From Candidatus Shapirobacteria bacterium (GTDB lineage Bacteria; Patescibacteriota; Microgenomatia; UBA12405), in assembly GCA_028704635.1 (NCBI GenBank), contig JAQWFB010000001.1:69541-133540 (forward strand): a stretch of 64,000 bases of DNA. Reading direction: 5' to 3'. The translations under genes and the position numbers were made by a program. Positions 28,283-41,209 of this stretch are shown here, piece by piece (positions within the stretch are counted from its first letter, which is position 1; each line of letters opens with the position of its first letter). Below the pieces are notes generated by a model, which was not told the origin of the DNA, made no database searches, and was given only the letters and a program-made list of their open reading frames with translations.

Positions 28283-28614
28283 TTAGTTGAACTTTGCCAA
28301 GCTGTTAAGAGTCTTCCAATCTCATTAATCAATTCCATAAAATGAGTATATCTTTTAACCGACAACATATTTATATCCTTTGACAATCTAACCTGGATTC
28401 TAAAAACATCCAAAAGTGTTGAAATTTGTTTTTGTTCTTCTTTTCGGTCATTTTTTGAATTAGCCACAATGGTTAATCGCAACATTTCCAAATTCGATTC
28501 CAATAATTTATTAGAAATCAAAAACCGTTGGCTTTTAGGAAATTTAGACACCACCATATTAGTGTAAAGATATAAGTCATACAATTTTTGAAAAATAATC
28601 AGGTGATCAGTCAT
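28267..28614 (-). CDS. avd: DGR accessory variability determinant (Avd)-like four-helix-bundle protein
   Basis: 115 aa. FPKSQRFLISNKLLESNLEMLRLTIVAN matches the Avd / 23S-rRNA-IVS family pattern FPKxE+FxLxxQ...N. Immediately downstream of the VR-bearing target. Confidence 0.65.
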   Translation of the reverse strand: MTDHLIIFQKLYDLYLYTNMVVSKFPKSQRFLISNKLLESNLEMLRLTIVANSKNDRKEEQKQISTLLDVFRIQVRLSKDINMLSVKRYTHFMELINEIGRLLTAWQSSTKVQAA

Positions 28615-28730
28615 AATTAAAATTTTATTAAAGATTTATTAAAAATTTATTAAATATTGTTATGGTTTTAAATCGCTTACCAGATCCCCAGATTTTTAGA
28701 TAAAAAAAAAGGAAAGATAGCTACGCTAAA

Positions 28731-28858
28731 TTACTGCAGAGGGGCCACGCAACGGAAACCAATGTTGTAGCCCGAGTTGCCGGGCGCATTGCTCAGAGAG
28801 AGGGTCCAGACACCGGCATTAGAACCGCTGCTCCAATACCCACCCCGTAGAAAAGCGT
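28731..28858 (-). repeat. DGR variable repeat (VR) at the 3' end of the target gene
   Basis: Encodes YAFLRGGYWSSGSNAGVWTLSLSNAPGNSGYNIGFRCVAPLQ*. Differs from TR only where TR has A. The 3' ~45 nt are identical to TR (IMH-like GC-rich end). Confidence 0.9.
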
Positions 28859-31103
28859 AAACGGTGCTGTCAGCATCAGCCACATCACTATAAGTATAAA
28901 TTCTTCCTACTCCCTGATTAGCATTCCAGGACGGGTTAGACGGCCTAATCGCATCATATCCTACCGAACTTCCTTGACCATTGTTAACCAAAATTCTTGT
29001 TGTTGAACCACTGGCAAAATCAGTCCAACCAAAACCCACATCCGGAGTTCCCGAAGTGGCCGAATCCGGTTCATCTTTCCTCAAAACCGTATTATCTGTC
29101 CATTCCCAAACATTACCCGCCATATCCCAAATAGTTTCTCCATTAGAAAGAGTCAAAGTTCGTTTTTGAGTTCCACCCGATCCACACGCAGTATTAACAT
29201 CTTTCGTCACCGTACCATAACAACCCTGGGAATCATCAGTTGATGCCTGAAGGGCAAAAGCCGGACCATTATCATTATGTCCAGAAGCCACAATCTTACC
29301 GCTTTGGCCAGGAGTAAAACCACAACTACCACCGTTGGAATCACACCAGTTACTGCCCATTTTTTCTAAATTACGGGCAATCGTCATGTACTCATTATTA
29401 GTTATCAAATGCCAACCCCGATCAGAACAAAGGCTTTTAGCATCAATTGCTGAACCATTATCTTGTGTCACATTAGCAATCGGATATCCCGCCGCCGATG
29501 ATACTATTTGCCTTCCGCCAGTATTACAGGGATATGAACTATTTGGCCAAGTATTATAACCTGTATCTTGAGTAATATTTCCCACTCCATCGCTGTTATC
29601 ATCACACTTAGCATTATATTTCATTACACAAAAATCACTGGTTCCATATAAAGGATCTCCTGGCACATGAATAAAACCAGTCGGACAAACCCTCTGGGCA
29701 TTACTAGCTTGAAGCGAATAATTTTTTCCCAAAGTTATCGCTCCACCAGAAAAATCAGCCGCTACTTCAAATAAAGTCCTATTGTATGGGTAAATCATCA
29801 CTTCATCAATTTTGCCATTAAAATAATTTGGGGTCGTTCCCGCCTTACCCACTAAAACCGCTCCTGGTGTTACCGACCACAAAGCCAAAGCTGGTGAAGA
29901 AATTAACCTAGCATTTTTGTAAAAATAAGCATTAGTTCCATCATAAGATACTGCCACGTGTGTCCAAGTATTAGCCTGAATCCCAGCTCCACTACTTGTC
30001 ACTGTTGTTCCACCTAAACTACCAAAATTTAACTCGCCACCACTAGTCAATTGAAAAGTATAGCCGCCAGTATTTGGCTGAGAAATAATGGCATAATTCC
30101 CCAAAGATGTCACATAAATCCAAGCTGATAACGTAATTGATCCACCCAATTGAAATTTAGAGTTACTGCCCAAATCCACATACTGACTATTGGCACTGGT
30201 TAATTGCAAACCATAATTTCTCACCCCAGTAATCCACTGTGCATTTCCAGAAAAATTTATCAAAGCCGCCCGAGAATAATTTGGGGCTTTATTCATTGTT
30301 TGATACCCAGAACCATCATCAAAACCTAATTTCACCACTGGTTTACCCCTTTCTTGTGAATAAGCCAGCGAACCGTCATTTCTAGCGCCAGTTGTTAATC
30401 TCACTTCATCAACGGTTCCATTTAAGAAATTACTGTAAGTTGAGGCTCCAGTTTTAGTGGTCGCCAAATAAAAATTTGAAGCCGTATCGGCCAAAGCCCC
30501 ACCCACACTAGCGGTAGTGCCTTCCCTTACCCCATTAACATAAATATAAATAGTACTCAAACTAGCATTGTAATATCCTTGCAATAAATACCATTGATTG
30601 GGCAATATTTGTGTTTGTCCCATCACTGTTTTAATATTGGCCGCCGTTCCATCCGTCGATACCTGAAACTTAGGAAAATTCCTTCCAGTCGAATCTGTTT
30701 CCACTGTTAATCTATAACTGCGAATATCCGTAGTTTCATCCCATTTTCCCAAAACTGTTTGAATCGTTCCAGAAACATTTGAAACCGCACTAAACTTCAC
30801 CCAAGCTTCAATCGAAAAACTGCCAGTTTGGGAAAACTCAGTACTATCCAGTGCCATCGCATAATTATTAATTCCATTAAATTTCAAACCCCTTCCATAT
30901 TTACCCACCCCTGTAGTCGGCAAGGAAGCACCGGTACTATAAGTAGCAATATTATTATTTCCCATTTTATCCTTAGTATTAGTACTAAGATCCGTCATAT
31001 CTTCAAAGTCATATTGAACCACCGGAGTATCCCAAACAGCATATTGCGCCGCCGCCTGTCGAAAAGAAAAAAGCCATAATAATAAAGCTATTAACAAACA
31101 CAT
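28731..31103 (-). CDS. DGR target: secreted protein with two LamG/ConA-like domains and a C-terminal C-type-lectin (FGE-sulfatase) fold variable domain
   Basis: Signal peptide MCLLIALLLWLFSFRQAAAQ. Two ..G(T/K)VDEV(R/M)L.. LamG-type segments. C-terminal RGGYW...GFRC signature of DGR variable proteins. Confidence 0.85.
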   Translation of the reverse strand: MCLLIALLLWLFSFRQAAAQYAVWDTPVVQYDFEDMTDLSTNTKDKMGNNNIATYSTGASLPTTGVGKYGRGLKFNGINNYAMALDSTEFSQTGSFSIEAWVKFSAVSNVSGTIQTVLGKWDETTDIRSYRLTVETDSTGRNFPKFQVSTDGTAANIKTVMGQTQILPNQWYLLQGYYNASLSTIYIYVNGVREGTTASVGGALADTASNFYLATTKTGASTYSNFLNGTVDEVRLTTGARNDGSLAYSQERGKPVVKLGFDDGSGYQTMNKAPNYSRAALINFSGNAQWITGVRNYGLQLTSANSQYVDLGSNSKFQLGGSITLSAWIYVTSLGNYAIISQPNTGGYTFQLTSGGELNFGSLGGTTVTSSGAGIQANTWTHVAVSYDGTNAYFYKNARLISSPALALWSVTPGAVLVGKAGTTPNYFNGKIDEVMIYPYNRTLFEVAADFSGGAITLGKNYSLQASNAQRVCPTGFIHVPGDPLYGTSDFCVMKYNAKCDDNSDGVGNITQDTGYNTWPNSSYPCNTGGRQIVSSAAGYPIANVTQDNGSAIDAKSLCSDRGWHLITNNEYMTIARNLEKMGSNWCDSNGGSCGFTPGQSGKIVASGHNDNGPAFALQASTDDSQGCYGTVTKDVNTACGSGGTQKRTLTLSNGETIWDMAGNVWEWTDNTVLRKDEPDSATSGTPDVGFGWTDFASGSTTRILVNNGQGSSVGYDAIRPSNPSWNANQGVGRIYTYSDVADADSTVYAFLRGGYWSSGSNAGVWTLSLSNAPGNSGYNIGFRCVAPLQ

Positions 31104-31240
31104 AATTCAGTATAACAAAATTTCTCTCCGCTAATTATATCTTTATTTCAAAAAATGAAATTTTAGTCAAAATTTCAGATTTAATTCCTGATATTCTATA
31201 CGTAGAAGATATCTAAAGTTTGATATATAACTAAACAATA

Positions 31241-32254
31241 ATGAATAGAAACTCATTGAACCAAATAATTAAGGACAGAATATTTGCCTCAAACGGAAAA
31301 ATATTTCAGGAATTAATTTGGAAAATTTTAATAAAAGTCTATCCAGATTTACAAACCCCTAAAATGCAACACGATCTTGGAAATGATGGCTATTCTACTA
31401 AAGAAAAAACATTTTTTGCTTGTTATGCGATCGAAGGAAATAAATACGACAACACCGAAACCATAAACAAAATTAACGACGATTATGATAAATTTGTAGA
31501 TAATTGGAAAAATAGAGGTTCTTTTAATAAATGGGTGTTTATAACAAAAGATGATTTAATGGGAATACCACATCAAACTATTGTAAACTTAAATTCAAAT
31601 AATGATGGTATTCTTAAAGAACTTTGGGGATTACCTCAGTTATTAGATAACTGCAATAATATTTCCGATAAAGACATACGAGTAATTTTCAACATTGAAG
31701 AAGATCCTAAATATATCTGTAACGGCGGAAATCAATTTAATCAACAAACGGACGGAAGTATTACTAATATATTTCAAAATTCAGAAAAACAAACTGACTT
31801 AGAAAGAACAATAATCGAAGAAATTTTTGAAAATGTTTTAAGTAAATTGAGTCCCTCCACATTACAAGAAAAAGTCTCAGACAAAAAACATTTAAATATA
31901 ACCAGTAAAATAGCATTAAATTTTGTCGATGAAGCAGACAGAGAAGATGTTGGACAATATTTTTCGTATGCCTTGACTAAAATTGATGAGATAGAGAGGA
32001 GAATTCAATTAGAGGATTCCGAAACTCAAAAAGATATCGAATCATATATCTACGGTCTTTACAAGCAATTTACTAGAAAAAATATTAGTAATATTGAAAT
32101 ATTAGAGTCATTATTTAGGGAAATAATTCCTCCAAACAAATCTCACGACCCCAAATATGTGAATCTATCAAGAGCATTCGTTCTGCTATTTTTTGATGAT
32201 TGTACAATCTTTAAAAAGACAAAGGAGGAAATAAAAAATGCTGTTACCAACTAA
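31241..32254 (+). CDS. hypothetical protein, candidate effector component of a Lamassu/ABC-3C-like system
   Basis: First gene of a tightly overlapping three-gene operon. N-terminal ~130 aa carries a possible nuclease-like core (HDLGNDGY...CYAIEGNK). Confidence 0.35.
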   Translation: MNRNSLNQIIKDRIFASNGKIFQELIWKILIKVYPDLQTPKMQHDLGNDGYSTKEKTFFACYAIEGNKYDNTETINKINDDYDKFVDNWKNRGSFNKWVFITKDDLMGIPHQTIVNLNSNNDGILKELWGLPQLLDNCNNISDKDIRVIFNIEEDPKYICNGGNQFNQQTDGSITNIFQNSEKQTDLERTIIEEIFENVLSKLSPSTLQEKVSDKKHLNITSKIALNFVDEADREDVGQYFSYALTKIDEIERRIQLEDSETQKDIESYIYGLYKQFTRKNISNIEILESLFREIIPPNKSHDPKYVNLSRAFVLLFFDDCTIFKKTKEEIKNAVTN

Positions 32255-32468
32255 ACATGAAATTTTAAAAAATAACGAGTTGGTTATCGGGGCAAAAATA
32301 ATTAATTTGTTATCAAAAAAGACATCAGTTAATATTACTGACTTATTTGAAGAAACTGTAAAGATAGACTCAATATCTCTTAATCAATTTTATGATACAT
32401 TAACGTTTTTATGGTTAGCTGATATTGTTATATTAGAGAAATTCAAAGTTCAACTTTTAAAACGATAA
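32238..32468 (+). CDS. small helical protein, candidate middle component (LmuC-like)
   Basis: 76 aa. Overlaps the upstream gene by 17 nt and ends 1 nt before the ATPase gene. Confidence 0.35.
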   Translation: MLLPTKHEILKNNELVIGAKIINLLSKKTSVNITDLFEETVKIDSISLNQFYDTLTFLWLADIVILEKFKVQLLKR

Positions 32469-32469
32469 T

Positions 32470-34230
32470 ATGTTTTTACAAAAATTATATTCTGAGCCTA
32501 ATGGTCTATTTAAAACAATTGAGTTTAAAGATGGAGTTAATTTTATCTTTGGAAAAAAGGAAAAGACATCCGATCCGAAAGAATCACTAAATGGGATTGG
32601 TAAATCATTAACCCTCGATTTTTTAGATTTTTGTCTACTCTCATCATTCCAAAAAAATCATTGTCCTCGACTATTTGATGCCTCTCAATATTTATTGGGA
32701 TACCAAATATGTTTAGAGTTTGAAATTGATGATTCAAACTACATCATTAAACGTAATATTGAAACTTCTAGTAAAATAATCATTGGGCCGATTGGAAAAG
32801 AAAAGGAATTATCTTTAAAAGAGGCTAAAGAATATCTTTGTGACCTAATTTTCAAAAGAAATTATGGTGGTTATTATTCAAATAGTTGGCTAAGAAAATT
32901 ATTACCGTTTTTTATAAAAATACAGAAACAAAAAAGCGACAGTTTTACCGACCCGATTAAATACATAAATGAAAGTTCCGTAGCTGAATTACTACAATAT
33001 CACTTTTTTCTATTAGATATTGACAATAAATTGTCTAAATATAATTTTGAACTTCAAAATAATATCAAACAAAAAGAACCTGCACTAAAAGAAGTAAAAA
33101 GTATTGTGGAAGACACCTATGAACTACGTGATATCTCCGAAGCTTCAAATAAGATAGATATATTGAATAAGGATATTGATAAGTTGGAAAAAGCAATTTC
33201 TAACTTTAAATTATCAGAGGAGTATTTTGACGTTGAGAATGATGCCAACGGACTTACTAAAAAAATTAAGGATATTTGGTTTAATAATTTTTCTGATAGA
33301 AAAAAGATATCCTCTTATGAGGATAGTTTTAAATTGGATACTGATATTGATACTAAAAAAATTCATAATATCTACAAACAGTTTAATGAATTACTTGCAG
33401 GTAATATCCAAAAAACCCTAGAAGAGGCGGTTCAATTTAGAATAGATTTAAGTAAATCAAGAAAAGAATTCATTCTTTCTGAGATTGATGAATTAAAAAA
33501 AATTATTACAAAAAGAGAAATAGAGGTAGAAGAGCTTGAAAACAAAAGAGCAAAACTATTTACATTTTTGTCCTCAAAAAAAGCTATTGAGGATTTATCT
33601 GAAGCATACCTTGCTTTAACTCAAAAGAAAGATTCCTCAAAGGATTTAGAGGGTAAAATAAGGCTGTATACTGATTTGTCGAAAGAATTAGCTGAACTAC
33701 GTGTTGAAGAGAAAAAAGTAGAAAAAGATTTTATTGGTTTTACAGAAGAATTCAACGGATCAATTTCAAAATTCAGAGGTATATTTTCAGATATATACAA
33801 CGCAGTCTATCCTCAAAATAAAGACGAATCTATTCTTTCGATAAAATCTGCTCCAAATACAAACGCCAAACTTGAGTTTAATATCACTTTTCCAAGTATG
33901 TACTCAAAAGGTAGAAATCAAGGAAGAACATTAATTTATGACTTAGCTATGTTGATTTATATGGAAACAAATAAAATTAGAGGACCGAGATTTCTTGTTC
34001 ATGATGGTATCTTTGATGGAATGGATAAAGCTCATTTTGTTTCTTTATATGAATACCTTGAAAATCTTAAGACACACTTAAGGTTTCAATATATTATTAC
34101 TATGAACGAAGAGGGAACACTGAACGATAACTTTGGTAATACTGATGCTGTTAGTCCGGAAAAAATTGCCATCGAAGCTATTGTACTTTTAACTCCAAAC
34201 AATAAACTATTGGGAAAAGATTTTAATTAA
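32470..34230 (+). CDS. SMC/ABC-type ATPase with long coiled-coil insert (LmuB / ABC-3C ATPase-like)
   Basis: N-terminal P-loop LNGIGKSL. ~300-aa K/E-rich coiled-coil middle. C-terminal RFLVHDGIFDGMD (Walker B/D-loop-like, with DG rather than DE). Confidence 0.55.
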   Translation: MFLQKLYSEPNGLFKTIEFKDGVNFIFGKKEKTSDPKESLNGIGKSLTLDFLDFCLLSSFQKNHCPRLFDASQYLLGYQICLEFEIDDSNYIIKRNIETSSKIIIGPIGKEKELSLKEAKEYLCDLIFKRNYGGYYSNSWLRKLLPFFIKIQKQKSDSFTDPIKYINESSVAELLQYHFFLLDIDNKLSKYNFELQNNIKQKEPALKEVKSIVEDTYELRDISEASNKIDILNKDIDKLEKAISNFKLSEEYFDVENDANGLTKKIKDIWFNNFSDRKKISSYEDSFKLDTDIDTKKIHNIYKQFNELLAGNIQKTLEEAVQFRIDLSKSRKEFILSEIDELKKIITKREIEVEELENKRAKLFTFLSSKKAIEDLSEAYLALTQKKDSSKDLEGKIRLYTDLSKELAELRVEEKKVEKDFIGFTEEFNGSISKFRGIFSDIYNAVYPQNKDESILSIKSAPNTNAKLEFNITFPSMYSKGRNQGRTLIYDLAMLIYMETNKIRGPRFLVHDGIFDGMDKAHFVSLYEYLENLKTHLRFQYIITMNEEGTLNDNFGNTDAVSPEKIAIEAIVLLTPNNKLLGKDFN

Positions 34231-34467: not shown

Positions 34468-34770
34468 ATGAAATTGCTAACAGTCGAGCTTATAAACACC
34501 TTTAAAAGAGTGGGGAGACAAGAAGAAGTTAAAGATCCCTTAGTTATTGCTAAGTTTTTTAATCCCACTGGTGCTGGGACTTGGTATGCCACTGAATACG
34601 AACCAGAATCCAAAATGTTTTTTGGTTATGTCTCTATCTTTAGAGATGATAATGACGAATGGGGTTATTTTTCCCTTGAGGAATTAGAAAGTATTAGAGG
34701 CTATTTTGGCTTAGGTATTGAACGTGATCTTTATTTCACCTCAAAACCATTTAGTCAGATTAAGTATTAA
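34468..34770 (+). CDS. DUF2958-family protein (plasmid/ICE-associated)
   Basis: EEVKDPLVIAKFFNPTGAGTWYATEYEPESKMFFGYVSI...EWGYFSLEELESIRG matches the conserved DUF2958 core. Confidence 0.65.
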   Translation: MKLLTVELINTFKRVGRQEEVKDPLVIAKFFNPTGAGTWYATEYEPESKMFFGYVSIFRDDNDEWGYFSLEELESIRGYFGLGIERDLYFTSKPFSQIKY

Positions 34771-34795
34771 TTATTTATTAAATATTAATTAAAAA

Positions 34796-34987
34796 ATGAT
34801 TAGAAAATTACCAATATTCAAAGGTTATACAGTTGATTTAAGGCTTCAAGAATTTAGAAAAATAGAGGCTGATAAATTACCTGAGTTTATCCCGTTATTA
34901 AGCGATAAAGGTGCCCGTCTGTTTTGGGAATTTAAACAGACTCATGCCGGTCAAAAAGAATTAGATCACTATTTAGGCCGTAAATAA
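34796..34987 (+). CDS. hypothetical protein
   Basis: 63-aa ORF. Confidence 0.3.
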   Translation: MIRKLPIFKGYTVDLRLQEFRKIEADKLPEFIPLLSDKGARLFWEFKQTHAGQKELDHYLGRK

Positions 34988-35018
34988 TAGAAAAATAAGA
35001 AAAACACCCCAGATGAAA

Positions 35019-35789
35019 TTAATTTTTCTCTGGGGTATTTTTTTCTTCAAAAGCACTAACCCATCTATTTGATGGTTCAATGGATAGATAAAAATCAATT
35101 TCTTCTTGATCTTCTTCTTCCATAATTCTAGGGATAAAAGAATGTAAATACTTTTTAATTGAATCATTGGGGCAGAGGATTAGAATTTTTGGAAAAGGAT
35201 GTTTAGTAACTTCTTGCCAAGTGTTGGCATTGTAATATTCTAAATATTGTTTAATTTTAGCCCGGATAACAAATCTGGGTGTGTCTTCGTCAATGATTTC
35301 CAAAAAATAGCGTTTGATTTTTTTGTTTTCCTTTGTGGCAATATAAGCATCTGGGTGTTTGTCCGGCAAATAATCGTAATTTATTAAATCAATTTTAGTA
35401 TAGAAAAATATTTCTTCAGGCAGATGAGATTTTTTAAGACTTAAATAAAAATCAGCTGATAATAAACAATGGTTAATAAATTTTTGAGTTCTCTTTTTCT
35501 CTCCATAAATTCGTTTCATTAATTTGGCATCTTTTTCCAGTTGATCAATTAAATAATTTTTACTTTTGCTTTTTAAAAAATAAATTGCTGGTTTAATATT
35601 GTCACCTAATTTATTTGAGTAGTTTCTACCAATTATTTTTTTATCATTTAGATTTTTTAACCAGATATTAATCTGACTTATTTTTTTATGATTCAGTAGT
35701 TGTTGTATTTGTAATCTGTTTAAGAATCGAAATCTGTAGAGCAGTATTATTATTTCTAATTGTTTTTTAGTTATGTTGTTTTTATCCAT
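35019..35789 (-). CDS. replication-relaxation (Replic_Relax) family protein
   Basis: N-terminal wHTH-like LTKKQLEIIILLYRFRFLNRLQIQQLL, typical of the family found on Gram-positive mobile elements. Confidence 0.5.
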   Translation of the reverse strand: MDKNNITKKQLEIIILLYRFRFLNRLQIQQLLNHKKISQINIWLKNLNDKKIIGRNYSNKLGDNIKPAIYFLKSKSKNYLIDQLEKDAKLMKRIYGEKKRTQKFINHCLLSADFYLSLKKSHLPEEIFFYTKIDLINYDYLPDKHPDAYIATKENKKIKRYFLEIIDEDTPRFVIRAKIKQYLEYYNANTWQEVTKHPFPKILILCPNDSIKKYLHSFIPRIMEEEDQEEIDFYLSIEPSNRWVSAFEEKNTPEKN

Positions 35790-35926
35790 TTTATTTTTTT
35801 ATTCTAGAAACCATCAAGAGAGTTTATCTTTATTCACTCTCTTACTCTATAAGAGTAAAGAGACTAAATTTAAAATTGATTATCCCTAAATTCAGGATAA
35901 ATATTAAAAATTTTTAATGTAGCGGG

Positions 35927-38740
35927 CTACACTAAAATTTCTTTCTTTTTAATTGACTTCTTTAATGGTTTTTTAGCTGTTTTAATTTTGTTTTTAACCT
36001 TTACTTTAGTCATTTCTTTTATTTCTTTTTTGTAAGTGATGGCATAATTTTTTCTTGATATCTCAATTAATTTTTGTAGTCTTTCCGGATTTCGATCTAA
36101 AACAATCGGGATAGTTTCTCCCGAAAATGGTTCTTCTGGTTCCACGGCTGATAATTTCATGTAAAACCTGAAACGAGGTAGATTACCAATATCTCCCTTT
36201 TTCACATAAGGGCTAAATTGGTCTAACATTAACTCTTCATCAATTGGACTAGCGGTTCTAAAACAAATAATAGTCCCAGTATTAGCTAAGATAACATTGA
36301 CCATATTCCGATCTGATTGTTGGGCGGTTGATTGTTCGGCAATGGTCAATCGTAATCCAAACTTTCTTCCCCCAGATAATAATTTAGTAAATGAAGTGGT
36401 AGCAAAATTTTGAAATTCATCCACAAATAAATAGAAGGGTTTTCGATTGATTATCGGAGTTCTGACTCGTCTCATGAAGGCTTGTTGTAGTTTGGCAATA
36501 ATCGTTGTTCCTAAAAGTTGGGAAGTATCCTCACCTAGTTTTCCTTCAGCTAAATTACAAATTAAGATTTTTCCAGAAGAAATAATTTCATCAAAATTAA
36601 TAGTTGATTTTGGTTGTTCCAATATTCTTTTAGCTGTAGGGGAGAATAAGAATCGACCAATTTTAGCCGTCACTCCAGAAACCATTTTAACTGCCTGGTA
36701 ACTTCCAGCTTTCCCAAATTCGTTTAACCAAAAGTTTTTTAAATTGGCGTCTTCTAATTTTGTCGTGATACTTTTTTGATAGTTTGGATTATTAAGCAAA
36801 TCATAAACTGTAAAAATAGTGGCGTCCTTAACGGTAAAGGCAGTATAAATGGTATTCCTCAAAATGTATTCAATTCGATGGGAATCAGTATTTTCATCTT
36901 TAGAAAATATTCGTCTAAAAACTGAAATGACACTTTCACAAACTAATTCTTTTTCTTGTTCTAATTCATCATCACTAAGGCCTGATTTAAGTTCTAATAA
37001 ATTGATCCCAATTGGATGACTAATATCAAAAGGATTTAAATAAATACAATCATCAAAGCGACTTTTGGGAACAGAATATAATAAATCTTCGGCAAGATCC
37101 CCATGAGGATCAATCACCGCCACTCCTCGGCCTTTTTGAATATCATCTTTAGCCATGTGAAAGATAATGGTGGTTTTACCGGAACCAGTTTGACCAATAG
37201 CATAGACATGACGAGAACGGTCATCATCAGTTAACCCAATGTCACTAACCACATTGGCATATTTATTCTTGCCAAAGACCACATCAAAATTGGAATTGTT
37301 TTTAACTGACAGAGGTGAGGGTAGTTCGGAACTATGACTAGTCACCATTCCTTCGGTTTTGGTGGTGACATTGTAAGGAAAATGATAAAGATCACTTAAT
37401 TCTGAAATTGATAAAATTGGATTTTGATTAAGGATTGAATTTGTCGATAAAGATTTTTGTTTAAATTGTTTTATCTGATTTTTAAAATTATTAAAAATAT
37501 AATTTTTAGAGACTAATGATTGATATGGACTACTTAATTGTCCTAAGGAAGAGATTAAACCATTAATTCTGGTTTTATTTTCTTCATCTTTATGAGTGAT
37601 TACTAATAATCTGATGGAAGTTTCAAATAATGACCGGTCAATTTTATCTTTAATAATTCTAGCTAGTTCTTGTTCATAAGGATTTAAAATTTCTTTAGGA
37701 GAGGCAGATGATGTTTGAAAAATTGGCACTGATTTACCACTAGTATCAATTATGGCCGGAATAATACTGATCACAAACAAAAACAGAAGATGAACTATTT
37801 TTCCAATACCTTTAACAAAAAACCAAATAATAGATATTCCTGGTAAAGCTACTAATTTTTGTAAAGCATTTTTTTGAACAACTTCAGTTAGTGGTAATCC
37901 TTGGTATAGTCGTGTTCTTAACTCTTTAATTTCGGACATTATCCTTTGATGAAAGACATTCATGATTGGGCTAACAATTATTTGAAAAGAAATTAATTCA
38001 TCTTTTTTAAGATTAGTCATATTTCCCGTTAGATAAGAGATAGGATCATTTTCTGAAAGTGTTTTTTGAGTTTGGAGTGGTAGGGCAAAATGACTCGATA
38101 ATTTTAATTCAATCAATCTAACTGATTCAGTTGTTTGATTAATTTTATTAATATCCAGATAATCGTTAATTTCCTTAATTTTGATTCCGGGTAAATAGGA
38201 TAAAAGATTATGTTTAATAATTTCTATAAATTTTGGATCAGCTGAGAGTAAATAACGGATACCTTCATTTTTAGTGGAGACAATTTCTAATGAGTATTCA
38301 TTTTTTCTTTGAGTTATTCGATCTCTAAAACTTACCTGTCGAGATAGGGTATGGAGGAGAGTATACAATTCTTCGGTCGCATAAGCTGATTTACTAGTAT
38401 CGGCTGGAAATATTAATTGAATCATTTTCTTACCAGTTCTTTTTTGGGAAAACTGTTTAAAAATCATTGGTACTACTGTTTTAATAATTCCTAAAATTAT
38501 TTTTATTAATATAATCAGAGAAATTATCCCCAAAATTGGTCCCACTACTAAAATGATCGTCATCCACATTGGAGATAACGTTGATATTAAGGGAGTTAAC
38601 CAGTTATAGAAAGTAAGTTTCCAAGAAATAGGTAAAGGCAGTGACAGAATTAAATAGAGGGAAAAGACATGAGTATTGGATAGAGTGTGTTGTTGAATCT
38701 GATGTAATAACTGAAGTTGTTGAACATCAACTGAAGTCAT
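35927..38740 (-). CDS. VirD4/TraG/FtsK-HerA-type coupling ATPase with N-terminal TM region
   Basis: Walker A GQTGSGKTT and Walker B FYLFVDEFQNF in the C-terminal half. TM helices in the N-terminal third. 937 aa. Confidence 0.55.
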   Translation of the reverse strand: MTSVDVQQLQLLHQIQQHTLSNTHVFSLYLILSLPLPISWKLTFYNWLTPLISTLSPMWMTIILVVGPILGIISLIILIKIILGIIKTVVPMIFKQFSQKRTGKKMIQLIFPADTSKSAYATEELYTLLHTLSRQVSFRDRITQRKNEYSLEIVSTKNEGIRYLLSADPKFIEIIKHNLLSYLPGIKIKEINDYLDINKINQTTESVRLIELKLSSHFALPLQTQKTLSENDPISYLTGNMTNLKKDELISFQIIVSPIMNVFHQRIMSEIKELRTRLYQGLPLTEVVQKNALQKLVALPGISIIWFFVKGIGKIVHLLFLFVISIIPAIIDTSGKSVPIFQTSSASPKEILNPYEQELARIIKDKIDRSLFETSIRLLVITHKDEENKTRINGLISSLGQLSSPYQSLVSKNYIFNNFKNQIKQFKQKSLSTNSILNQNPILSISELSDLYHFPYNVTTKTEGMVTSHSSELPSPLSVKNNSNFDVVFGKNKYANVVSDIGLTDDDRSRHVYAIGQTGSGKTTIIFHMAKDDIQKGRGVAVIDPHGDLAEDLLYSVPKSRFDDCIYLNPFDISHPIGINLLELKSGLSDDELEQEKELVCESVISVFRRIFSKDENTDSHRIEYILRNTIYTAFTVKDATIFTVYDLLNNPNYQKSITTKLEDANLKNFWLNEFGKAGSYQAVKMVSGVTAKIGRFLFSPTAKRILEQPKSTINFDEIISSGKILICNLAEGKLGEDTSQLLGTTIIAKLQQAFMRRVRTPIINRKPFYLFVDEFQNFATTSFTKLLSGGRKFGLRLTIAEQSTAQQSDRNMVNVILANTGTIICFRTASPIDEELMLDQFSPYVKKGDIGNLPRFRFYMKLSAVEPEEPFSGETIPIVLDRNPERLQKLIEISRKNYAITYKKEIKEMTKVKVKNKIKTAKKPLKKSIKKKEILV

Positions 38741-38827
38741 TTTGAGTCTCCATTAGGTTATATAAATACTTATATATAAAAATATGACAAAGTATATCAC
38801 AAACACTAATAGGAGGTTGTTAAGGAC

Positions 38828-39049
38828 TTAAGGCAAAATCTCAGAAGATTTAATCTTCAGTGCTTTACAGATATTTTCTATTACTGAAAAAGTAGGATTT
38901 TCTTCACCCCTCTCAATACCCGCATAATAAGTAGTTGAAATCTTACTCATTTTTGCCGCTTCTTCTTGAGAGAATCCCTTTTGTTCTCTCATTTTACGGA
39001 TATTTTTACCAAATTCCTGTTGGCTTTTTTTATTTGGACTTGGAGTCAT
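38828..39049 (-). CDS. XRE-family HTH transcriptional regulator
   Basis: FSQEEAAKMSKISTTYYAGIERGEENPTFSVIENICKAL helix-turn-helix. Confidence 0.85.
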   Translation of the reverse strand: MTPSPNKKSQQEFGKNIRKMREQKGFSQEEAAKMSKISTTYYAGIERGEENPTFSVIENICKALKIKSSEILP

Positions 39050-39105
39050 ATTTTTAGTATAACACTAGGCTATTTTCAGAGTATTGTACTAAAATATTAT
39101 GAATA

Positions 39106-39194
39106 ACAACTATAGTTATATTTTAGCTTCATATTTTACTATATTTACCGCTTGACAGCTATAACCACAGTTGTTATTCTATAACTATAGTTGT
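39106..39194. promoter_or_regulatory. divergent promoter/operator region with repeated dyad CAACTATAGTT(A/G)
   Basis: caactatagtta at 39107-39118 and taactatagttg at 39182-39193, both near-perfect 12-bp palindromes. A related dyad ataaccacagttgttat at 39161-39177. TTGACA at 39152-39157. Confidence 0.5.
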
Positions 39195-39212
39195 AGTTAA
39201 AAAGAGTAAACC

Positions 39213-39422
39213 ATGATAAGTAAAGAGTATCTTGATAAGTTTAAAAAGTTATATAAAGACAAATACAATATAACTCTTTCAGATGAAGAAACAACCGAAT
39301 TAGCAACACATTTTATAAACTTAATGGAAATTCTTATTAAACCAAAATCAAAAACAGAAAACCAAATTAATAATCAGACTTGTATATCAGAAAGGAGACA
39401 ATATGCGACTGGCAGAATATAA
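39213..39422 (+). CDS. hypothetical protein (possible excisionase/RDF position)
   Basis: 69-aa ORF immediately upstream of, and overlapping, the serine recombinase start. Confidence 0.3.
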   Translation: MISKEYLDKFKKLYKDKYNITLSDEETTELATHFINLMEILIKPKSKTENQINNQTCISERRQYATGRI

Positions 39423-41124
39423 CACTAAAAATATAAGCGAGCTTCCAAACACACCACATTACATGATGTATTGCCGAAAAAGCAGCGAATCTGATGAACG
39501 ACAAATTCAGTCTCTACCAGATCAAGTAACTAACTTGACTGATTTTATTCATCAACGAGGAGTTGAATTAGTCGGAGAACCTCTACAGGAACAAAGAACC
39601 GCCAAAATTCCAGGCAGGCCGATTTTCAATCGTCTTGTTCAAATGATTGAGGACAGAGAAATAAACGGAATCGTCCTTCTTAACCCTTCCCGATTATCAA
39701 GAAATACTGTCGACACTGGACGCATCATTTATTTAATGGATCAAGGAAAACTCCTTGAGGTTATAACTCCTTATCAAACCTTTCGGAATAATCCCAATGA
39801 TAAATTTATGCTCAATTTGCTTTGTACTCAAGCAAAACTTGAAAATGATAATAAAAGTGTCAATATTACCGAGGCCTTAAAACTCAAAGCTGAAAGGGGA
39901 GTATTCCCGGGTCGAGCTAGACCGGGATATAAAAATAATCACGAAAAACCTCAAGGACTCCGAGATATCTCCGCTCACCCTGTTTATTTTCCCTTAATGA
40001 GAAAACTTTTTGATCTTGCTTTAACTGGTAATTACAGCGTCCAATCACTAATTAGAGAAGCAAAAATTTTAGGAATCAGAAGTTTAAAATCCGGTAAACC
40101 GATTGTAAAAAGTTGGATGTATAGACTTCTTCGTGACCCCTTTTATACAGGGAGATTTATGTACAACGGAAAACTCTATCAAGGACAACACCCTGCAATG
40201 ATTACTGATGCCGAATTTAATCTGCTGCAAGATATCTTGGATGGGAAGTCAAAAGCGAGACTACAAAAACATGATTTTGCTCTCAATGGAATTATAGAAT
40301 GTGGCGAATGTCACTATTGCATTACTGCTCAAGAACACACCAAAAAATATAAAAATGGCACACAGCAAACTTTTGGATATTATTGTTGTACTAAGAAAGG
40401 TGAAACGAAATGTAGCCAACGCTACACCGCAACCAGTAAACTTGAAGGTCAATTTTTAGACGACTTAGGTCAGTTTAAAATTATGGATCAGGAATTTATA
40501 GATTGGGCTTATGAAGCTTTGGATGAAACGAAGGATAAGAATCAGAAGGTTAATAAAAATAGTTCTGAAGCTCTTCAAATCGCTTTAGATGGAGTTAATA
40601 GAAGAATTGATAATCTTATCGCTCTTAAGATATCACCAGAAAACGACGGCAGCTTACTTTCAAACGCAGAGTTTTCTGACAGGAAACGCGGACTTATGAT
40701 AGAAAAAGAAACAATTCTTCAACAACTCGCACAATGTAATTCTAACGGATCAGATTGGACAAATGTCGCCCGCGATGCGTTTGATTTTGCATTACTAGCC
40801 CAAGAACGCTTTGAACACGGCGATTCACAAGATAAAAAAGTGATTTTCAAAGCCATCGGCGTGAACCCGATCTTACTAGATCAAGAATTACAATATCAGC
40901 CTCGATTTATCTTTTTGAAGATAAAAGAGGGTATTAAGAAAACCAATGACAAAAATAGTCGGCTTGAACCTCAAAAAACCCCATCAGATCAGGCTAATTT
41001 AGAAAATTACCTAAAAAGTTCTGTATGGTGCCGCAGAGAGGAGTTGAACCTCCATGGGTTTCCCCACACGGTCCTAAGCCGTGCTTGTATACCAATTTCA
41101 ACACTGCGGCAAGTTTTTAATTAA
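39403..41124 (+). CDS. large serine recombinase (phiC31-type integrase)
   Basis: Catalytic block YCRKSSESDERQ (YxRxSS/T..Q), recombinase domain, zinc-ribbon cysteines CGECHYC...CC, coiled-coil C-terminus. 573 aa. The last ~85 nt overlap tRNA-Leu(TAG) on the opposite strand. Confidence 0.9.
   Translation: MRLAEYNTKNISELPNTPHYMMYCRKSSESDERQIQSLPDQVTNLTDFIHQRGVELVGEPLQEQRTAKIPGRPIFNRLVQMIEDREINGIVLLNPSRLSRNTVDTGRIIYLMDQGKLLEVITPYQTFRNNPNDKFMLNLLCTQAKLENDNKSVNITEALKLKAERGVFPGRARPGYKNNHEKPQGLRDISAHPVYFPLMRKLFDLALTGNYSVQSLIREAKILGIRSLKSGKPIVKSWMYRLLRDPFYTGRFMYNGKLYQGQHPAMITDAEFNLLQDILDGKSKARLQKHDFALNGIIECGECHYCITAQEHTKKYKNGTQQTFGYYCCTKKGETKCSQRYTATSKLEGQFLDDLGQFKIMDQEFIDWAYEALDETKDKNQKVNKNSSEALQIALDGVNRRIDNLIALKISPENDGSLLSNAEFSDRKRGLMIEKETILQQLAQCNSNGSDWTNVARDAFDFALLAQERFEHGDSQDKKVIFKAIGVNPILLDQELQYQPRFIFLKIKEGIKKTNDKNSRLEPQKTPSDQANLENYLKSSVWCRREELNLHGFPHTVLSRACIPISTLRQVFN
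41039..41120 (-). tRNA. tRNA-Leu (anticodon TAG)
   Basis: Manual fold: GCCGCAG acceptor, anticodon stem CACGG/CCGTG, loop CTTAGGA, long variable arm. Confidence 0.8.
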
Positions 41125-41136
41125 TGTGGGTCCGGC

Positions 41137-41209
41137 GGGACTCGAACCCGCGACCAATCGCTTAAGAGGCGACCGCTCTACCAACTGAGCTACAAACCCA
41201 AAAGACTGT
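41137..41209 (-). tRNA. tRNA-Lys (anticodon CTT)
   Basis: Manual fold: GGGTTTG/CGGACCC acceptor (two G-U pairs), anticodon loop CTCTTAA, T-arm GCGGG/CCCGC. Confidence 0.75.

What the first reader, a model, noticed from the sequence alone, without database searches (positions are those of the whole stretch)
31241..34230. Candidate Lamassu / ABC-3C-type three-gene defense operon between the DGR and the integrative module
Three tightly overlapping plus-strand genes: a 337-aa protein with a possible nuclease-like N-terminal domain, a 76-aa helical protein, and a 586-aa protein. The last one has an N-terminal P-loop (LNGIGKSL), a ~300-aa K/E-rich coiled coil and a C-terminal RFLVHDGIFDGMD block, i.e. 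an SMC/ABC head split by a coiled coil. Order effector - small protein - SMC-like ATPase matches Lamassu (LmuA-LmuC-LmuB / DdmABC) and ABC-3C systems. The Walker B acidic pair is D-G rather than D-E. The 337-aa protein has no recognized motif, so this could be an unrecognized variant.
Basis: inference. Interest (0 to 1): 0.7.

Follow-up and report, generated by a model that had tools for sequence, protein, structure and literature searches.

The report
Lamassu-like ABC-3C defence operon, Mrr-like head
The three genes are an intact member of an already catalogued family of predicted bacterial anti-virus/anti-plasmid systems (ABC-3C, the wider Lamassu family), sitting on a mobile element of a Candidatus Shapirobacteria genome; the only new part is an unannotated nuclease-like head whose usual catalytic lysine is replaced by tyrosine.

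Summary
Three co-directional ORFs lie at 31241-32254 (337 aa), 32238-32468 (76 aa) and 32470-34230 (586 aa).

- **76-aa protein:** it passes Pfam's threshold for ABC-3C Middle Component 6.
- **586-aa protein:** it is a YydD/DUF2326 SMC-like ATPase (PADLOC PDC-M68B, 2.5e-74). Its closest structures are B. subtilis YydD and then the LmuB chains of solved Lamassu complexes, ahead of SMC/Rad50.
- **Conservation:** the effector–MC–ATPase order recurs in about 60 of 67 related loci from many bacterial and archaeal phyla, in unrelated neighbourhoods. RefSeq already labels plasmid homologues "ABC-three component system" proteins.
- **Walker B:** the D-G pair (H-D-G) is invariant in 121 homologues, so it is a family trait.
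- **Effector head:** it lines up with E. coli Mrr but has Tyr in place of the catalytic Lys. D45, D49 and K77 are invariant.

Verdict: a new member of a known, computationally described kind. Its mechanism is inferred by analogy with Lamassu, and this clade has no experimental defence data. Interest is modest.

The parts
31104..31240 (+). Intergenic region upstream of the operon, shared divergently with the DGR variable-protein gene. It is the presumed promoter region; no element was identified.
   Evidence: Sequence read. The promoter/terminator scan found no more sites than shuffled sequence gives. The assignment rests on position only.
31241..32254 (+). Effector component (LmuA analogue), 337 aa: N-terminal head, linker and C-terminal CTD10-like domain.
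   Evidence: ORF. There are 13 close homologues, mostly from CPR bacteria, and 860 profile hits. AlphaFold model.
31241..31696 (+). Effector head, residues 1-152: a restriction-endonuclease (PD-(D/E)xK, Mrr-like) fold with a non-canonical active site. D45, D49 and K77 are invariant, and Tyr62 sits where Mrr has its catalytic Lys219.
31784..32254 (+). Effector C-terminal helical domain, residues about 182-337, CTD10-like. It is the predicted docking/oligomerisation module.
   Evidence: Pfam CTD10 scores 16.3 bits, below the gathering score of 28.1, but spans profile positions 10-134 of 134. The relative P0134 reaches CTD10 at 50.7 bits. An HMM of this domain hits 61 of 62 upstream proteins in related loci.
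32238..32468 (+). Middle component (LmuC analogue), 76 aa, Pfam MC6.
   Evidence: MC6 scores 30.1 bits against a gathering score of 27.2. 64 of 65 small ORFs directly upstream of ATPase homologues are homologous to it. RefSeq names the plasmid counterparts 'ABC-three component system middle component 6'.
32470..34230 (+). SMC-like ABC ATPase (LmuB analogue) of the YydD/DUF2326 family, 586 aa.
   Evidence: DUF2326 at 2.9e-22. PDC-M68B at 2.5e-74. AlphaFold pLDDT 85.6. Foldseek top hits are YydD 9a6c_A (7.4e-25), then the LmuB chains 9ux7_A, 9uxh_F and 9hqx_B.
32584..32607 (+). Walker A / P-loop, residues 39-46 (S-L-N-G-I-G-K-S).
   Evidence: S39, N41, G44 and K45 are invariant in 121 homologues.
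33028..33807 (+). Coiled-coil arm, residues about 187-446, without a CxxC zinc hook.
   Evidence: Helices in the model. No CxxC occurs in this region in any of 121 homologues.
33904..34116 (+). C-terminal ATPase lobe motifs: a signature-like S479-x-G481-x-N483, the deviant Walker B F508-L-V-H511-D512-G513, the D-loop region D516-G-M-D519, and Q540-Y541...N546-E547-E548-G549 where the H-loop would be.
   Evidence: Column conservation in 121 homologues. Motif names are assigned by position in the ABC fold and are inference.

Best explanation
This is an intact three-gene ABC-3C system of the YydD/DUF2326-MC6-CTD10 clade, that is, a 'short', type II-like Lamassu in the broad sense. It is carried as cargo on an integrative/conjugative-type element of a Candidatus Shapirobacteria genome. 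The likely mechanism is inferred from solved Lamassu complexes. A dimer of the SMC-like ATPase together with the 76-aa middle component holds the C-terminal domain of the 337-aa protein, which keeps its N-terminal Mrr-like head monomeric and inactive. When the ATPase heads meet an aberrant DNA structure from an invader (for example free DNA ends), ATP binding and slow turnover by the deviant H-D-G Walker B site release the effector. The effector then self-associates through its C-terminal domain and its restriction-endonuclease-fold head cuts DNA. This aborts the infection or destroys the incoming plasmid. Shown here: the domain identities, the fold similarities, the operon conservation, the effector-head swapping and the purifying selection. 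Inferred: complex formation, the trigger, the release step and the nuclease activity.
For: - **Components:** MC6 passes Pfam's cut-off and DUF2326 scores 2.9e-22. PDC-M68B scores 2.5e-74.
- **ATPase fold:** the model's best matches are the B. subtilis YydD-YydB integrative model (7.4e-25), then LmuB chains of type I, type II and Salmonella Lamassu, ahead of SMC, Rad50 and JetC.
- **Modular tail:** the same C-terminal domain is attached to SIR2_2, HNH_2 and SMEK_N heads in relatives, which is the ABC-3C/Lamassu effector logic.
- **Synteny:** about 60 of 67 ATPase loci across many phyla have a CTD protein, a ~75-aa MC and the ATPase in that order, in unrelated contexts.
- **Existing annotation:** RefSeq labels plasmid trios as ABC-three component system proteins. 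One carries the same head (E 5.7e-40). Another lies on a conjugative plasmid.
- **Selection:** dN/dS is 0.043.
- **Literature:** type II Lamassu equals ABC-3C, and LmuB proteins naturally have deviant Walker B motifs yet hydrolyse ATP (10.1101/2025.06.23.660979). Short LmuB proteins are about 600 aa, with Mrr, HNH, SMEK and Sir2 heads and a headless clade (10.1101/2025.04.02.646746). The sequestration, release and tetramerisation model comes from 10.1101/2025.03.14.643221.
Against: - I found no experimental defence data for this clade. Literature searches for DUF2326, PDC-M68 and YydD/YydB gave nothing relevant.
- The head lacks the canonical catalytic Lys: the position is Tyr, Asn, His or Trp in all 31 aligned members. 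One member weakly hits an 'inactive REase' Pfam family.
- Foldseek against the PDB gave no significant hit for the effector model.
- PADLOC's LmuA profiles do not hit the effector, and its LmuB profile hits only weakly, over the coiled-coil part.
- Walker B has Gly, not Q/S/T/E, after the Asp, and there is no H-loop His, so ATP turnover is uncertain.
- About 24 of 62 related loci encode a headless CTD protein, so the core may act without an enzymatic head.
- The C-terminal domain of the window protein is below Pfam's CTD10 threshold and is modelled with low confidence.
Confidence: 0.72

Rival explanations
1. The system is an ABC-3C complex, but the Mrr-like head is catalytically dead. It would act as a DNA-binding or sensor module, or only as an oligomerisation-dependent scaffold. 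The output would then come from the ATPase-MC-CTD core itself, as it must in the headless relatives.
For: The canonical beta-3 Lys is absent in all 31 aligned heads: the Q-x-K position reads (A/Q)-x-(Y/N/H/W). One member weakly matches Pfam NA-iREase2, an 'inactive restriction endonuclease' family (E 0.0024). About 24 of 62 related loci have a 171-204-aa CTD-only protein with intact MC and ATPase genes. The literature reports a similar headless clade O (10.1101/2025.04.02.646746). The head is also fused to TPR arrays in P0130 and P0152, an architecture in which it could serve as either a sensor or an effector.
Against: The two metal-binding-type aspartates (D45, D49), K77 and D81 are invariant or nearly so across a family with 21-57% identity to the window protein's head. 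That pattern suggests a maintained active site with a relocated Lys. The head occupies the slot that SIR2, HNH and SMEK enzymatic domains occupy in paralogous proteins.
Confidence: 0.17
2. The trio mainly serves the mobile element that carries it. It would act in plasmid/ICE competition, exclusion of rival elements or post-segregational stabilisation rather than in anti-phage defence of the host.
For: In the window it lies between a DGR and a Replic_Relax / T4 coupling protein / serine recombinase module, with T4SS pilin/TrbL-like genes upstream. A homologous HNH-MC6-DUF2326 trio sits next to MobF and VirB genes on a conjugative Pseudomonas plasmid. 43 plasmid records carry homologues. Loci L011 and L012 also have a serine recombinase nearby. 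The Lamassu system DdmABC has reported anti-plasmid activity (PMC11707656; 10.1101/2025.03.14.643221).
Against: This differs from the best explanation in target, not in mechanism. Many related loci show no obvious mobile-element genes within the flanks examined. Only one weak phage-record hit and no direct evidence of a target exist.
Confidence: 0.08
3. The 586-aa protein is a housekeeping SMC/RecN/SbcC/Rad50-type DNA-repair ATPase, and the two upstream ORFs are unrelated neighbours.
For: A profile search of PDB sequences finds only weak Rad50 N-lobe matches (E about 0.01). The fold is SMC/Rad50-like.
Against: The best structural matches are YydD and LmuB, not Rad50 or SMC. The gene is always preceded by MC6 and a CTD protein. 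ATPase identity of 45-57% across CPR bacteria, Bacteroidota, Planctomycetota and methanogens, in variable neighbourhoods, points to horizontal transfer. No Mre11/SbcD-like or kleisin partner is present. There is no zinc hook.
Confidence: 0.03

Closest known systems
ABC-3C systems (Krishnan, Burroughs, Iyer & Aravind, NAR 2020; the paper could not be read here and is known through the Pfam families MC1-8 and CTD1-12 and citing papers), specifically the DUF2326/YydD-MC6-CTD10 clade. This equals PADLOC candidate PDC-M68 and the B. subtilis yydB-C-D type.
   Same: The gene order is the same. The small protein passes Pfam's MC6 threshold. The ATPase is DUF2326 and PDC-M68B over its full length. The effector tail is CTD10-like and the effector head is swappable. 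RefSeq uses these names for plasmid homologues. The ATPase fold is closest to the YydD model 9a6c.
   Different: PADLOC's PDC-M68A profiles match an HNH-headed relative over its whole length, but the window protein's close relatives only through their C-terminal domains. The window protein instead carries an Mrr-like head with no Pfam or PADLOC model. By my recollection B. subtilis YydB has a different, phosphoesterase-type head; this was not tested here.
Type II / 'short' Lamassu (LmuA-LmuC-LmuB; V. cholerae DdmABC, Salmonella LmuACB)
   Same: There are three genes in the order effector, small protein, ~600-aa SMC-like ATPase. The effector has an enzymatic head and a docking C-terminal domain. 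Walker B is naturally deviant. LmuB chains rank 2, 3, 6 and 9 in the fold search. The literature treats ABC-3C and type II Lamassu as the same class and lists Mrr, HNH, SMEK and Sir2 heads and a headless clade for short Lamassu.
   Different: The families differ at sequence level: MC6 rather than MC3, CTD10-like rather than CTD7, and DUF2326 rather than the LmuB profiles (PADLOC LmuB only 1.6e-5 over the coiled-coil part, no LmuA hit). Walker B is H-D-G rather than hhhhD[Q/S/T/E]. The head is Mrr-like with Tyr for Lys rather than Cap4. There is no experimental evidence for this clade.
Mrr-type PD-(D/E)xK nuclease domains (EcoKMrr, AF1548, the FokI cleavage domain, the Avs4 N-terminal nuclease)
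   Different: Mrr's Q217-A-K219 is A60-C-Y62 here, and no family member has Lys at that position. K77 and D81 on the next helix are invariant instead. Pfam Mrr_cat is reached only weakly by 4 of 31 members.
Rad50/SbcC and SMC proteins
   Same: The ABC head is split by an antiparallel coiled coil, with a Walker A and a signature-like motif.
   Different: The arm is much shorter. There is no zinc hook or hinge, no Mre11/SbcD or kleisin partner, and no catalytic Glu or H-loop His. The gene is patchily distributed and mobile.

Membership tests
ABC-3C system (MC6/CTD10/DUF2326 clade) | SMC-like ABC ATPase: N-terminal Walker A lobe, coiled-coil insert, C-terminal signature/Walker B lobe (DUF2326) | tested here: met
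   DUF2326 at 79.3 bits against a gathering score of 28.7. PDC-M68B at 2.5e-74 over residues 13-555. Motif conservation. Model.
ABC-3C system (MC6/CTD10/DUF2326 clade) | Small 'middle component' of a recognised MC family encoded directly upstream of the ATPase | tested here: met
   Pfam MC6 at 30.1 bits against a gathering score of 27.2. Homologous small ORFs are present in 64 of 65 related loci.
ABC-3C system (MC6/CTD10/DUF2326 clade) | First gene encodes a protein ending in a recognised ABC-3C C-terminal domain (CTD) | tested here: met
   The direct Pfam CTD10 match is below threshold (16.3 against 28.1) but covers profile positions 10-134 of 134. The criterion is therefore met by transitive homology. 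A profile of the window protein and its orthologues retrieves proteins that pass CTD10 (P0134 at 50.7 bits; 4 of 22, plus CTD11 and CTD12). The CTD HMM hits 61 of 62 upstream proteins.
ABC-3C system (MC6/CTD10/DUF2326 clade) | Variable effector heads on a conserved CTD across the family | tested here: met
   SIR2_2 (P0101), HNH_2 (P0051, L095) and SMEK_N (4 loci) heads occur, as do the Mrr-like head (about 20 loci) and headless forms.
Lamassu (type II / short), as defined by LmuA/LmuB/LmuC profiles and experiments | ATPase matches LmuB sequence profiles | tested here: not met
   The PADLOC LmuB match is only 1.6e-5 over residues 143-437, the coiled-coil part. The best match is PDC-M68B. An orthologue (L008) hits one LmuB model at 8.6e-16 over the N-lobe only. 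DefenseFinder's newer LmuB models could not be run.
Lamassu (type II / short), as defined by LmuA/LmuB/LmuC profiles and experiments | ATPase has the LmuB fold (short folded SMC-like arm) | tested here: met
   The LmuB chains 9ux7_A, 9uxh_F, 9hqx_B and 9hqu_A score E 8.6e-12 to 2.1e-9. They rank just below YydD and interleave with the top SMC/Rad50 hits at ranks 4-8.
Lamassu (type II / short), as defined by LmuA/LmuB/LmuC profiles and experiments | Effector matches an LmuA profile | tested here: not met
   No PADLOC family hit at E <= 1 for the 337-aa protein.
Lamassu (type II / short), as defined by LmuA/LmuB/LmuC profiles and experiments | Deviant Walker B (no catalytic Glu after the Asp) | tested here: met
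   H-D-G is invariant in 121 homologues. The residue after the Asp (Gly) falls outside the published D[Q/S/T/E] set (10.1101/2025.04.02.646746).
Lamassu (type II / short), as defined by LmuA/LmuB/LmuC profiles and experiments | A1:B2:C1 complex, DNA-end sensing, effector release and oligomerisation, and protection against phage or plasmid | not testable with these tools
   This needs biochemistry, cryo-EM and infection assays. No multimer prediction tool was available.
PADLOC candidate PDC-M68 | Both PDC-M68A and PDC-M68B profiles are matched | tested here: inconclusive
   B is matched strongly. A is not matched by the window protein. Its orthologues P0007 and P0009 match A only through their C-terminal domains (7e-5 and 0.0028), whereas the HNH-headed P0051 matches at 1.5e-29.
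Mrr-like PD-(D/E)xK nucleases (Pfam Mrr_cat) | Restriction-endonuclease alpha-beta-beta-beta-alpha-beta core | tested here: met
Mrr-like PD-(D/E)xK nucleases (Pfam Mrr_cat) | Catalytic D ... (E/Q)-x-K motif | tested here: not met
   The Asp residues are present (D45 and D49 pair with Mrr D199 and D203). The (E/Q)-x-K position is A60-C61-Y62, and no Lys occurs there in 31 family members.
Mrr-like PD-(D/E)xK nucleases (Pfam Mrr_cat) | Passes the Pfam Mrr_cat model | tested here: not met
   The window protein gives no hit. 4 of 31 family members hit with a best E of 0.0079.
Housekeeping SMC / RecN / SbcC / Rad50 | Orthology to a repair or condensation ATPase, with its usual partners and a hinge or zinc hook | tested here: not met
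   Rad50 is matched only at E about 0.01 over the N-lobe. There is no CxxC. There is no Mre11/SbcD or kleisin neighbour. The gene is always linked to MC6 and a CTD protein.

The most novel reading that the evidence does not exclude
The YydD/DUF2326 clade may be mechanistically distinct from the studied Lamassu systems. It has an invariant H-D-G Walker B and N-E-E-G in place of the H-loop, and about 40% of its loci encode a headless CTD protein. These features would fit an ATP-binding switch whose CTD-MC-ATPase core is itself the active agent. The Tyr-for-Lys Mrr-like head, with invariant D45/D49/K77/D81, would then be either a new catalytic variant of the PD-(D/E)xK fold or a nucleic-acid sensor rather than a DNA-shredding effector.
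Probability: 0.15. Interest if true: 0.6.

Novelty: new member of a known kind. Interest (0 to 1): 0.33.

Why it matters
The finding adds a clearly intact, selected ABC-3C/Lamassu-type system to a Candidate Phyla Radiation genome, where it rides on a conjugative/integrative element next to a DGR. It also defines an effector head with no Pfam or PADLOC model and no PDB sequence homologue: an Mrr-like fold with the catalytic Lys replaced by Tyr. That head accounts for about a third of the sampled YydD-type systems and is also found fused to TPR arrays. The practical value is better annotation: a profile for the head, and recognition that PDC-M68, DUF2326/YydD and MC6 belong to the wider Lamassu family. 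It also points to an untested clade with an unusual ATPase site (H-D-G, no H-loop His) that would be a useful comparison for the Lamassu activation model. It does not reveal a new kind of system.

Tried and rejected
- **PDB sequence-profile searches:** nothing for the head. Only weak Rad50 N-lobe matches for the ATPase, and the Lamassu chains were not detected by sequence.
- **NCBIfam:** nothing meaningful for any of the three proteins.
- **Promoter/terminator scan:** counts no higher than shuffled sequence, so no regulatory claim is made.
- **Literature:** the defining ABC-3C paper (NAR 2020) could not be fetched by DOI or by a PMC id recalled from memory. Searches for 'PDC-M68', 'DUF2326', 'yydD' and 'YydB' returned no functional study.
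- **hhalign of the head family against a single Mrr sequence:** only a short, low-probability alignment (E 0.018). I use it only to place D45 and D49; the rest of the correspondence was read by eye.
- **Housekeeping SMC/RecN/SbcC reading:** considered and rejected (see rival explanations).
- **A non-coding RNA in the region:** the Rfam scan of 20-45 kb found only tRNAs.
Full report
**1. Observation**

The ORF list shows three co-directional plus-strand ORFs at the reported coordinates.
- 31241-32254 encodes 337 aa.
- 32238-32468 encodes 76 aa and overlaps the first gene by 17 nt.
- 32470-34230 encodes 586 aa and starts 1 nt after the previous stop.

The antisense ORFs in the interval are short (50-64 aa) and were not examined further. 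The quoted motifs are present. Residues 181-440 of the 586-aa protein are 15% K and 12% E. The AlphaFold model (pLDDT 85.6) shows long helices over residues 187-446 between two beta-rich lobes. The window is about 31% G+C and the operon about 28%. The 337-aa protein is identical to a protein annotated in a Candidatus Shapirobacteria MAG. The same contig was recovered from several metagenomes.

**2. What the three proteins are**

Pfam:
- The 76-aa protein matches ABC-3C Middle Component 6 at 30.1 bits (gathering score 27.2).
- The 586-aa protein matches DUF2326 at 2.9e-22 over residues 444-582.
- The 337-aa protein matches ABC-3C C-terminal domain 10 (CTD10) below threshold (16.3 against 28.1 bits), but over almost the whole profile (residues 200-325).

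PADLOC:
- The ATPase matches candidate PDC-M68B at 2.5e-74 over its full length.
- It matches LmuB only at 1.6e-5, over the coiled-coil part.
- The other two proteins have no hit.

NCBIfam gives nothing useful. JGI names the ATPase homologues 'YydD (DUF2326 family)'.

**3. The ATPase**

In 121 homologues of 45-97% identity:
- The Walker A residues S39, N41, G44 and K45 are invariant, and S/T follows at position 46.
- A signature-like S479-x-G481-x-N483 is conserved.
- H511-D512-G513 is 100% invariant.
- Q540, Y541, N546 and G549 are invariant and E547 and E548 are 98% conserved.

There is also no His at the usual H-loop position. No homologue has a CxxC hook in the arm.

A profile search of PDB sequences finds only weak Rad50 N-lobe similarity. 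The fold search is clearer:
- The best hit is 9a6c_A, the integrative model of B. subtilis YydD-YydB (E 7.4e-25).
- Next come LmuB of type I Lamassu (9ux7_A), of type II Lamassu (9uxh_F) and of Salmonella LmuACB (9hqx_B, 9hqu_A).
- SMC, Rad50, Smc5/6, MukB and JetC rank below or among these.

The protein is thus a YydD-type relative of LmuB and not a housekeeping SMC/RecN/SbcC.

Against a natural variant that differs at 93 of 1761 nt, the gene shows dN/dS = 0.043. This indicates strong purifying selection.

**4. The 337-aa protein**

Close full-length homologues are few (13), mostly from CPR lineages. A profile search of 1.84 billion representatives gives 860 hits and splits the protein into two mobile modules.

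*C-terminal module (about residues 182-337).* It occurs in three forms:
- alone, in proteins of about 185 aa;
- behind other heads, such as SIR2_2 (P0101) and HNH_2 (P0051);
- behind the same head in P0134, where it passes Pfam CTD10 at 50.7 bits.

*N-terminal module (residues 1-152).* It also occurs fused to long TPR arrays (P0130, P0152). It is modelled confidently (pLDDT 80-90) as helix-helix-strand-strand-helix-strand-helix-strand.
- Foldseek against the PDB is not significant.
- Sequence profiles find no PDB relative.
- Pfam Mrr_cat is hit only weakly, by 4 of 31 family members.

*Comparison with E. coli Mrr.* The 31-member alignment and the comparison with Mrr show a matching layout.

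| Feature | Window protein | E. coli Mrr |
|---|---|---|
| First helix | G-x-x-F-Q | R-F-E |
| Asp loop/strand | H-D45-L-G-N-D49-G-Y | G-D199-G-G-I-D203-G-V |
| Next strand | T-F-F-A60-C-Y62 | V-Y-V-Q217-A-K219 |
| Later strand | K-W-V-F-I-T-K-D | R-G-V-F-I-T-T-S |

- The Asp pair is invariant.
- The Lys position is Tyr in most members (Asn, His or Trp in the rest) and is never Lys.
- K77 is invariant and D81 nearly so; both lie on the following helix.

I read this as an Mrr-like domain with a rearranged active site. Whether it is catalytically active is not shown.

**5. Conservation of the trio**

Orthologues of the 337-aa protein in four other contexts are each followed by a ~75-aa ORF and a ~586-aa DUF2326 ATPase. 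These are a WWE3 genome, an unassigned 290-kb contig, a Moranbacteria genome and a contig with a serine recombinase. In the WWE3 locus the small gene had simply not been called.

A scan of one genome per GTDB species returned 80 loci. They come from CPR lineages, Bacteroidota, Ignavibacteria, Planctomycetota, Omnitrophota, Pseudomonadota, methanogens, Nitrososphaeraceae and Woesearchaeota.

In 67 loci with enough upstream sequence:
- 65 have a small ORF abutting the ATPase, and 64 of these are homologous to the window's 76-aa protein.
- 62 have a further upstream ORF, and 61 of these carry the CTD.
- About 20 of the 62 have the same Mrr-like head.
- About 24 are headless (171-204 aa).
- The rest have other heads, including SMEK_N (4) and HNH_2 (2).

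Plasmids carry distant homologues (21-26% ATPase identity) that RefSeq annotates as 'ABC-three component system protein / middle component 6 / DUF2326'.
- The Yoonia plasmid effector has the same head (E 5.7e-40).
- The Pseudomonas example has an HNH head and lies beside MobF and VirB genes.

**6. Context in the window**

Upstream lies a DGR.
- Its template repeat (25828-25955) and variable repeat (28731-28858) are 91% complementary over 128 nt.
- Its genes are an RT (26110-27006), a Fic-domain gene (27224-28252), bAvd (28267-28614, minus strand) and a 790-aa variable protein (28731-31103, minus strand).

Downstream lie DUF2958, Replic_Relax, a T4 coupling protein and a large serine recombinase. 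The recombinase ORF's 3' end overlaps tRNA-Leu(tag). T4SS pilin/TrbL-like genes lie at 21810-23123. The operon therefore looks like cargo of an integrative/conjugative-type element.

No promoter or terminator stands out above chance. Rfam finds only tRNAs in 20-45 kb.

**7. Mechanism**

All of the following is inference from the solved Lamassu systems.
- LmuA's C-terminal domain is sequestered by two folded LmuB protomers and LmuC.
- DNA-end binding and ATP turnover free LmuA, which tetramerises and activates its nuclease (10.1101/2025.03.14.643221; 10.1101/2025.04.02.646746; 10.1101/2025.06.23.660979).
- Those papers also state that type II Lamassu equals ABC-3C and that LmuB proteins naturally have deviant Walker B motifs yet hydrolyse ATP.
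- They further report that short LmuB proteins are about 600 aa, with Mrr, HNH, SMEK and Sir2 heads and one headless clade. This pattern closely matches what I found around YydD-type ATPases.

I therefore propose the same sequestration-release-oligomerisation logic here, with the Mrr-like head as the DNA-cutting output.

Three points weaken the analogy: the missing canonical Lys, the Gly after the Walker B Asp, and the many headless relatives. These underlie the main rival, an inactive or sensor head with the core as the actor.

**8. Comparison with known systems and novelty**

The system passes the tests for ABC-3C membership. These are a DUF2326 ATPase, MC6 above threshold, a CTD10-like tail (by transitive homology) and swappable heads.
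- It resembles Lamassu in architecture and in ATPase fold, but it does not match the PADLOC LmuA profiles and matches LmuB only weakly.
- It is the PADLOC candidate PDC-M68 with a different head.
- I found no experimental study of this clade.

I rate it a new member of a known kind. The modestly new element is the unannotated Tyr-for-Lys Mrr-like head and the clade's unusual ATPase site. Interest: 0.33.

Noticed in passing
window 25828-31103: A complete DGR lies immediately upstream. The template repeat (25828-25955) and variable repeat (28731-28858, the 3' end of the minus-strand 790-aa gene) are 128 nt long and 91% complementary. The genes are an RT at 26110-27006, a Fic-domain gene at 27224-28252 between RT and bAvd, bAvd at 28267-28614, and a variable protein with two Laminin_G_3 domains and an FGE-sulfatase-like C-terminal domain.
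   Followed up: partly
window 21810-23123 and 34468-41199: There is an integrative/conjugative-type module. It comprises a T4SS pilin/TrbL-like protein, DUF2958, Replic_Relax, a 937-aa T4 coupling protein and a large serine recombinase (39403-41124). The recombinase ORF's 3' end overlaps tRNA-Leu(tag) at 41026-41110 on the opposite strand, with tRNA-Lys next to it. This is a probable integration site.
   Followed up: partly
loci L016-L019, L021, L024, L029-L030, L032, L036, L038, L044, L046, L048-L052, L060, L067, L070: About 24 of 62 related operons encode only a 171-204-aa CTD protein with no enzymatic head, yet keep MC6 and the ATPase. This resembles the 'clade O' headless short Lamassu mentioned in 10.1101/2025.04.02.646746. 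What acts as the effector in these operons is unexplained.
   Followed up: no
proteins P0130 (923 aa) and P0152 (733 aa): The same Mrr-like head (residues 1-166) is fused to long TPR arrays instead of the ABC-3C C-terminal domain. In these two proteins the Tyr62 position is His. This looks like a separate single-protein conflict-system architecture.
   Followed up: no
L008 6984-7208: The MC6 protein of a related locus gives a weak PADLOC hit to the C-terminal part of JetA, the Wadjet kleisin (E 0.0018, residues 28-72 against JetA 395-439). This could hint at a kleisin-like winged-helix origin for MC6, or it could be chance.
   Followed up: no
window 34084-34116 (ATPase residues 539-549): Where ABC ATPases carry the H-loop His, this family has F-Q-Y-I-x-T-x-N-E-E-G. 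Q540, Y541, N546 and G549 are invariant, and E547 and E548 are 98% conserved. Together with the invariant H511 before the Walker B Asp, this suggests a non-standard catalytic arrangement.
   Followed up: partly
window 34468-34987; L093 2123-2675: The DUF2958 gene and a 63-aa ORF downstream of the operon are kept in the same order in a contig whose ATPase differs from the window's at 93 of 1761 nt. Whether they are functionally linked to the trio or simply belong to the same element is unknown.
   Followed up: no
PDB 9a6c (fold search hit): An integrative cross-linking-MS/deep-learning model of B. subtilis YydD-YydB exists in the PDB, which implies that the ATPase and effector of this clade contact each other in cells. 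The source paper was not found with the literature tool.
   Followed up: partly
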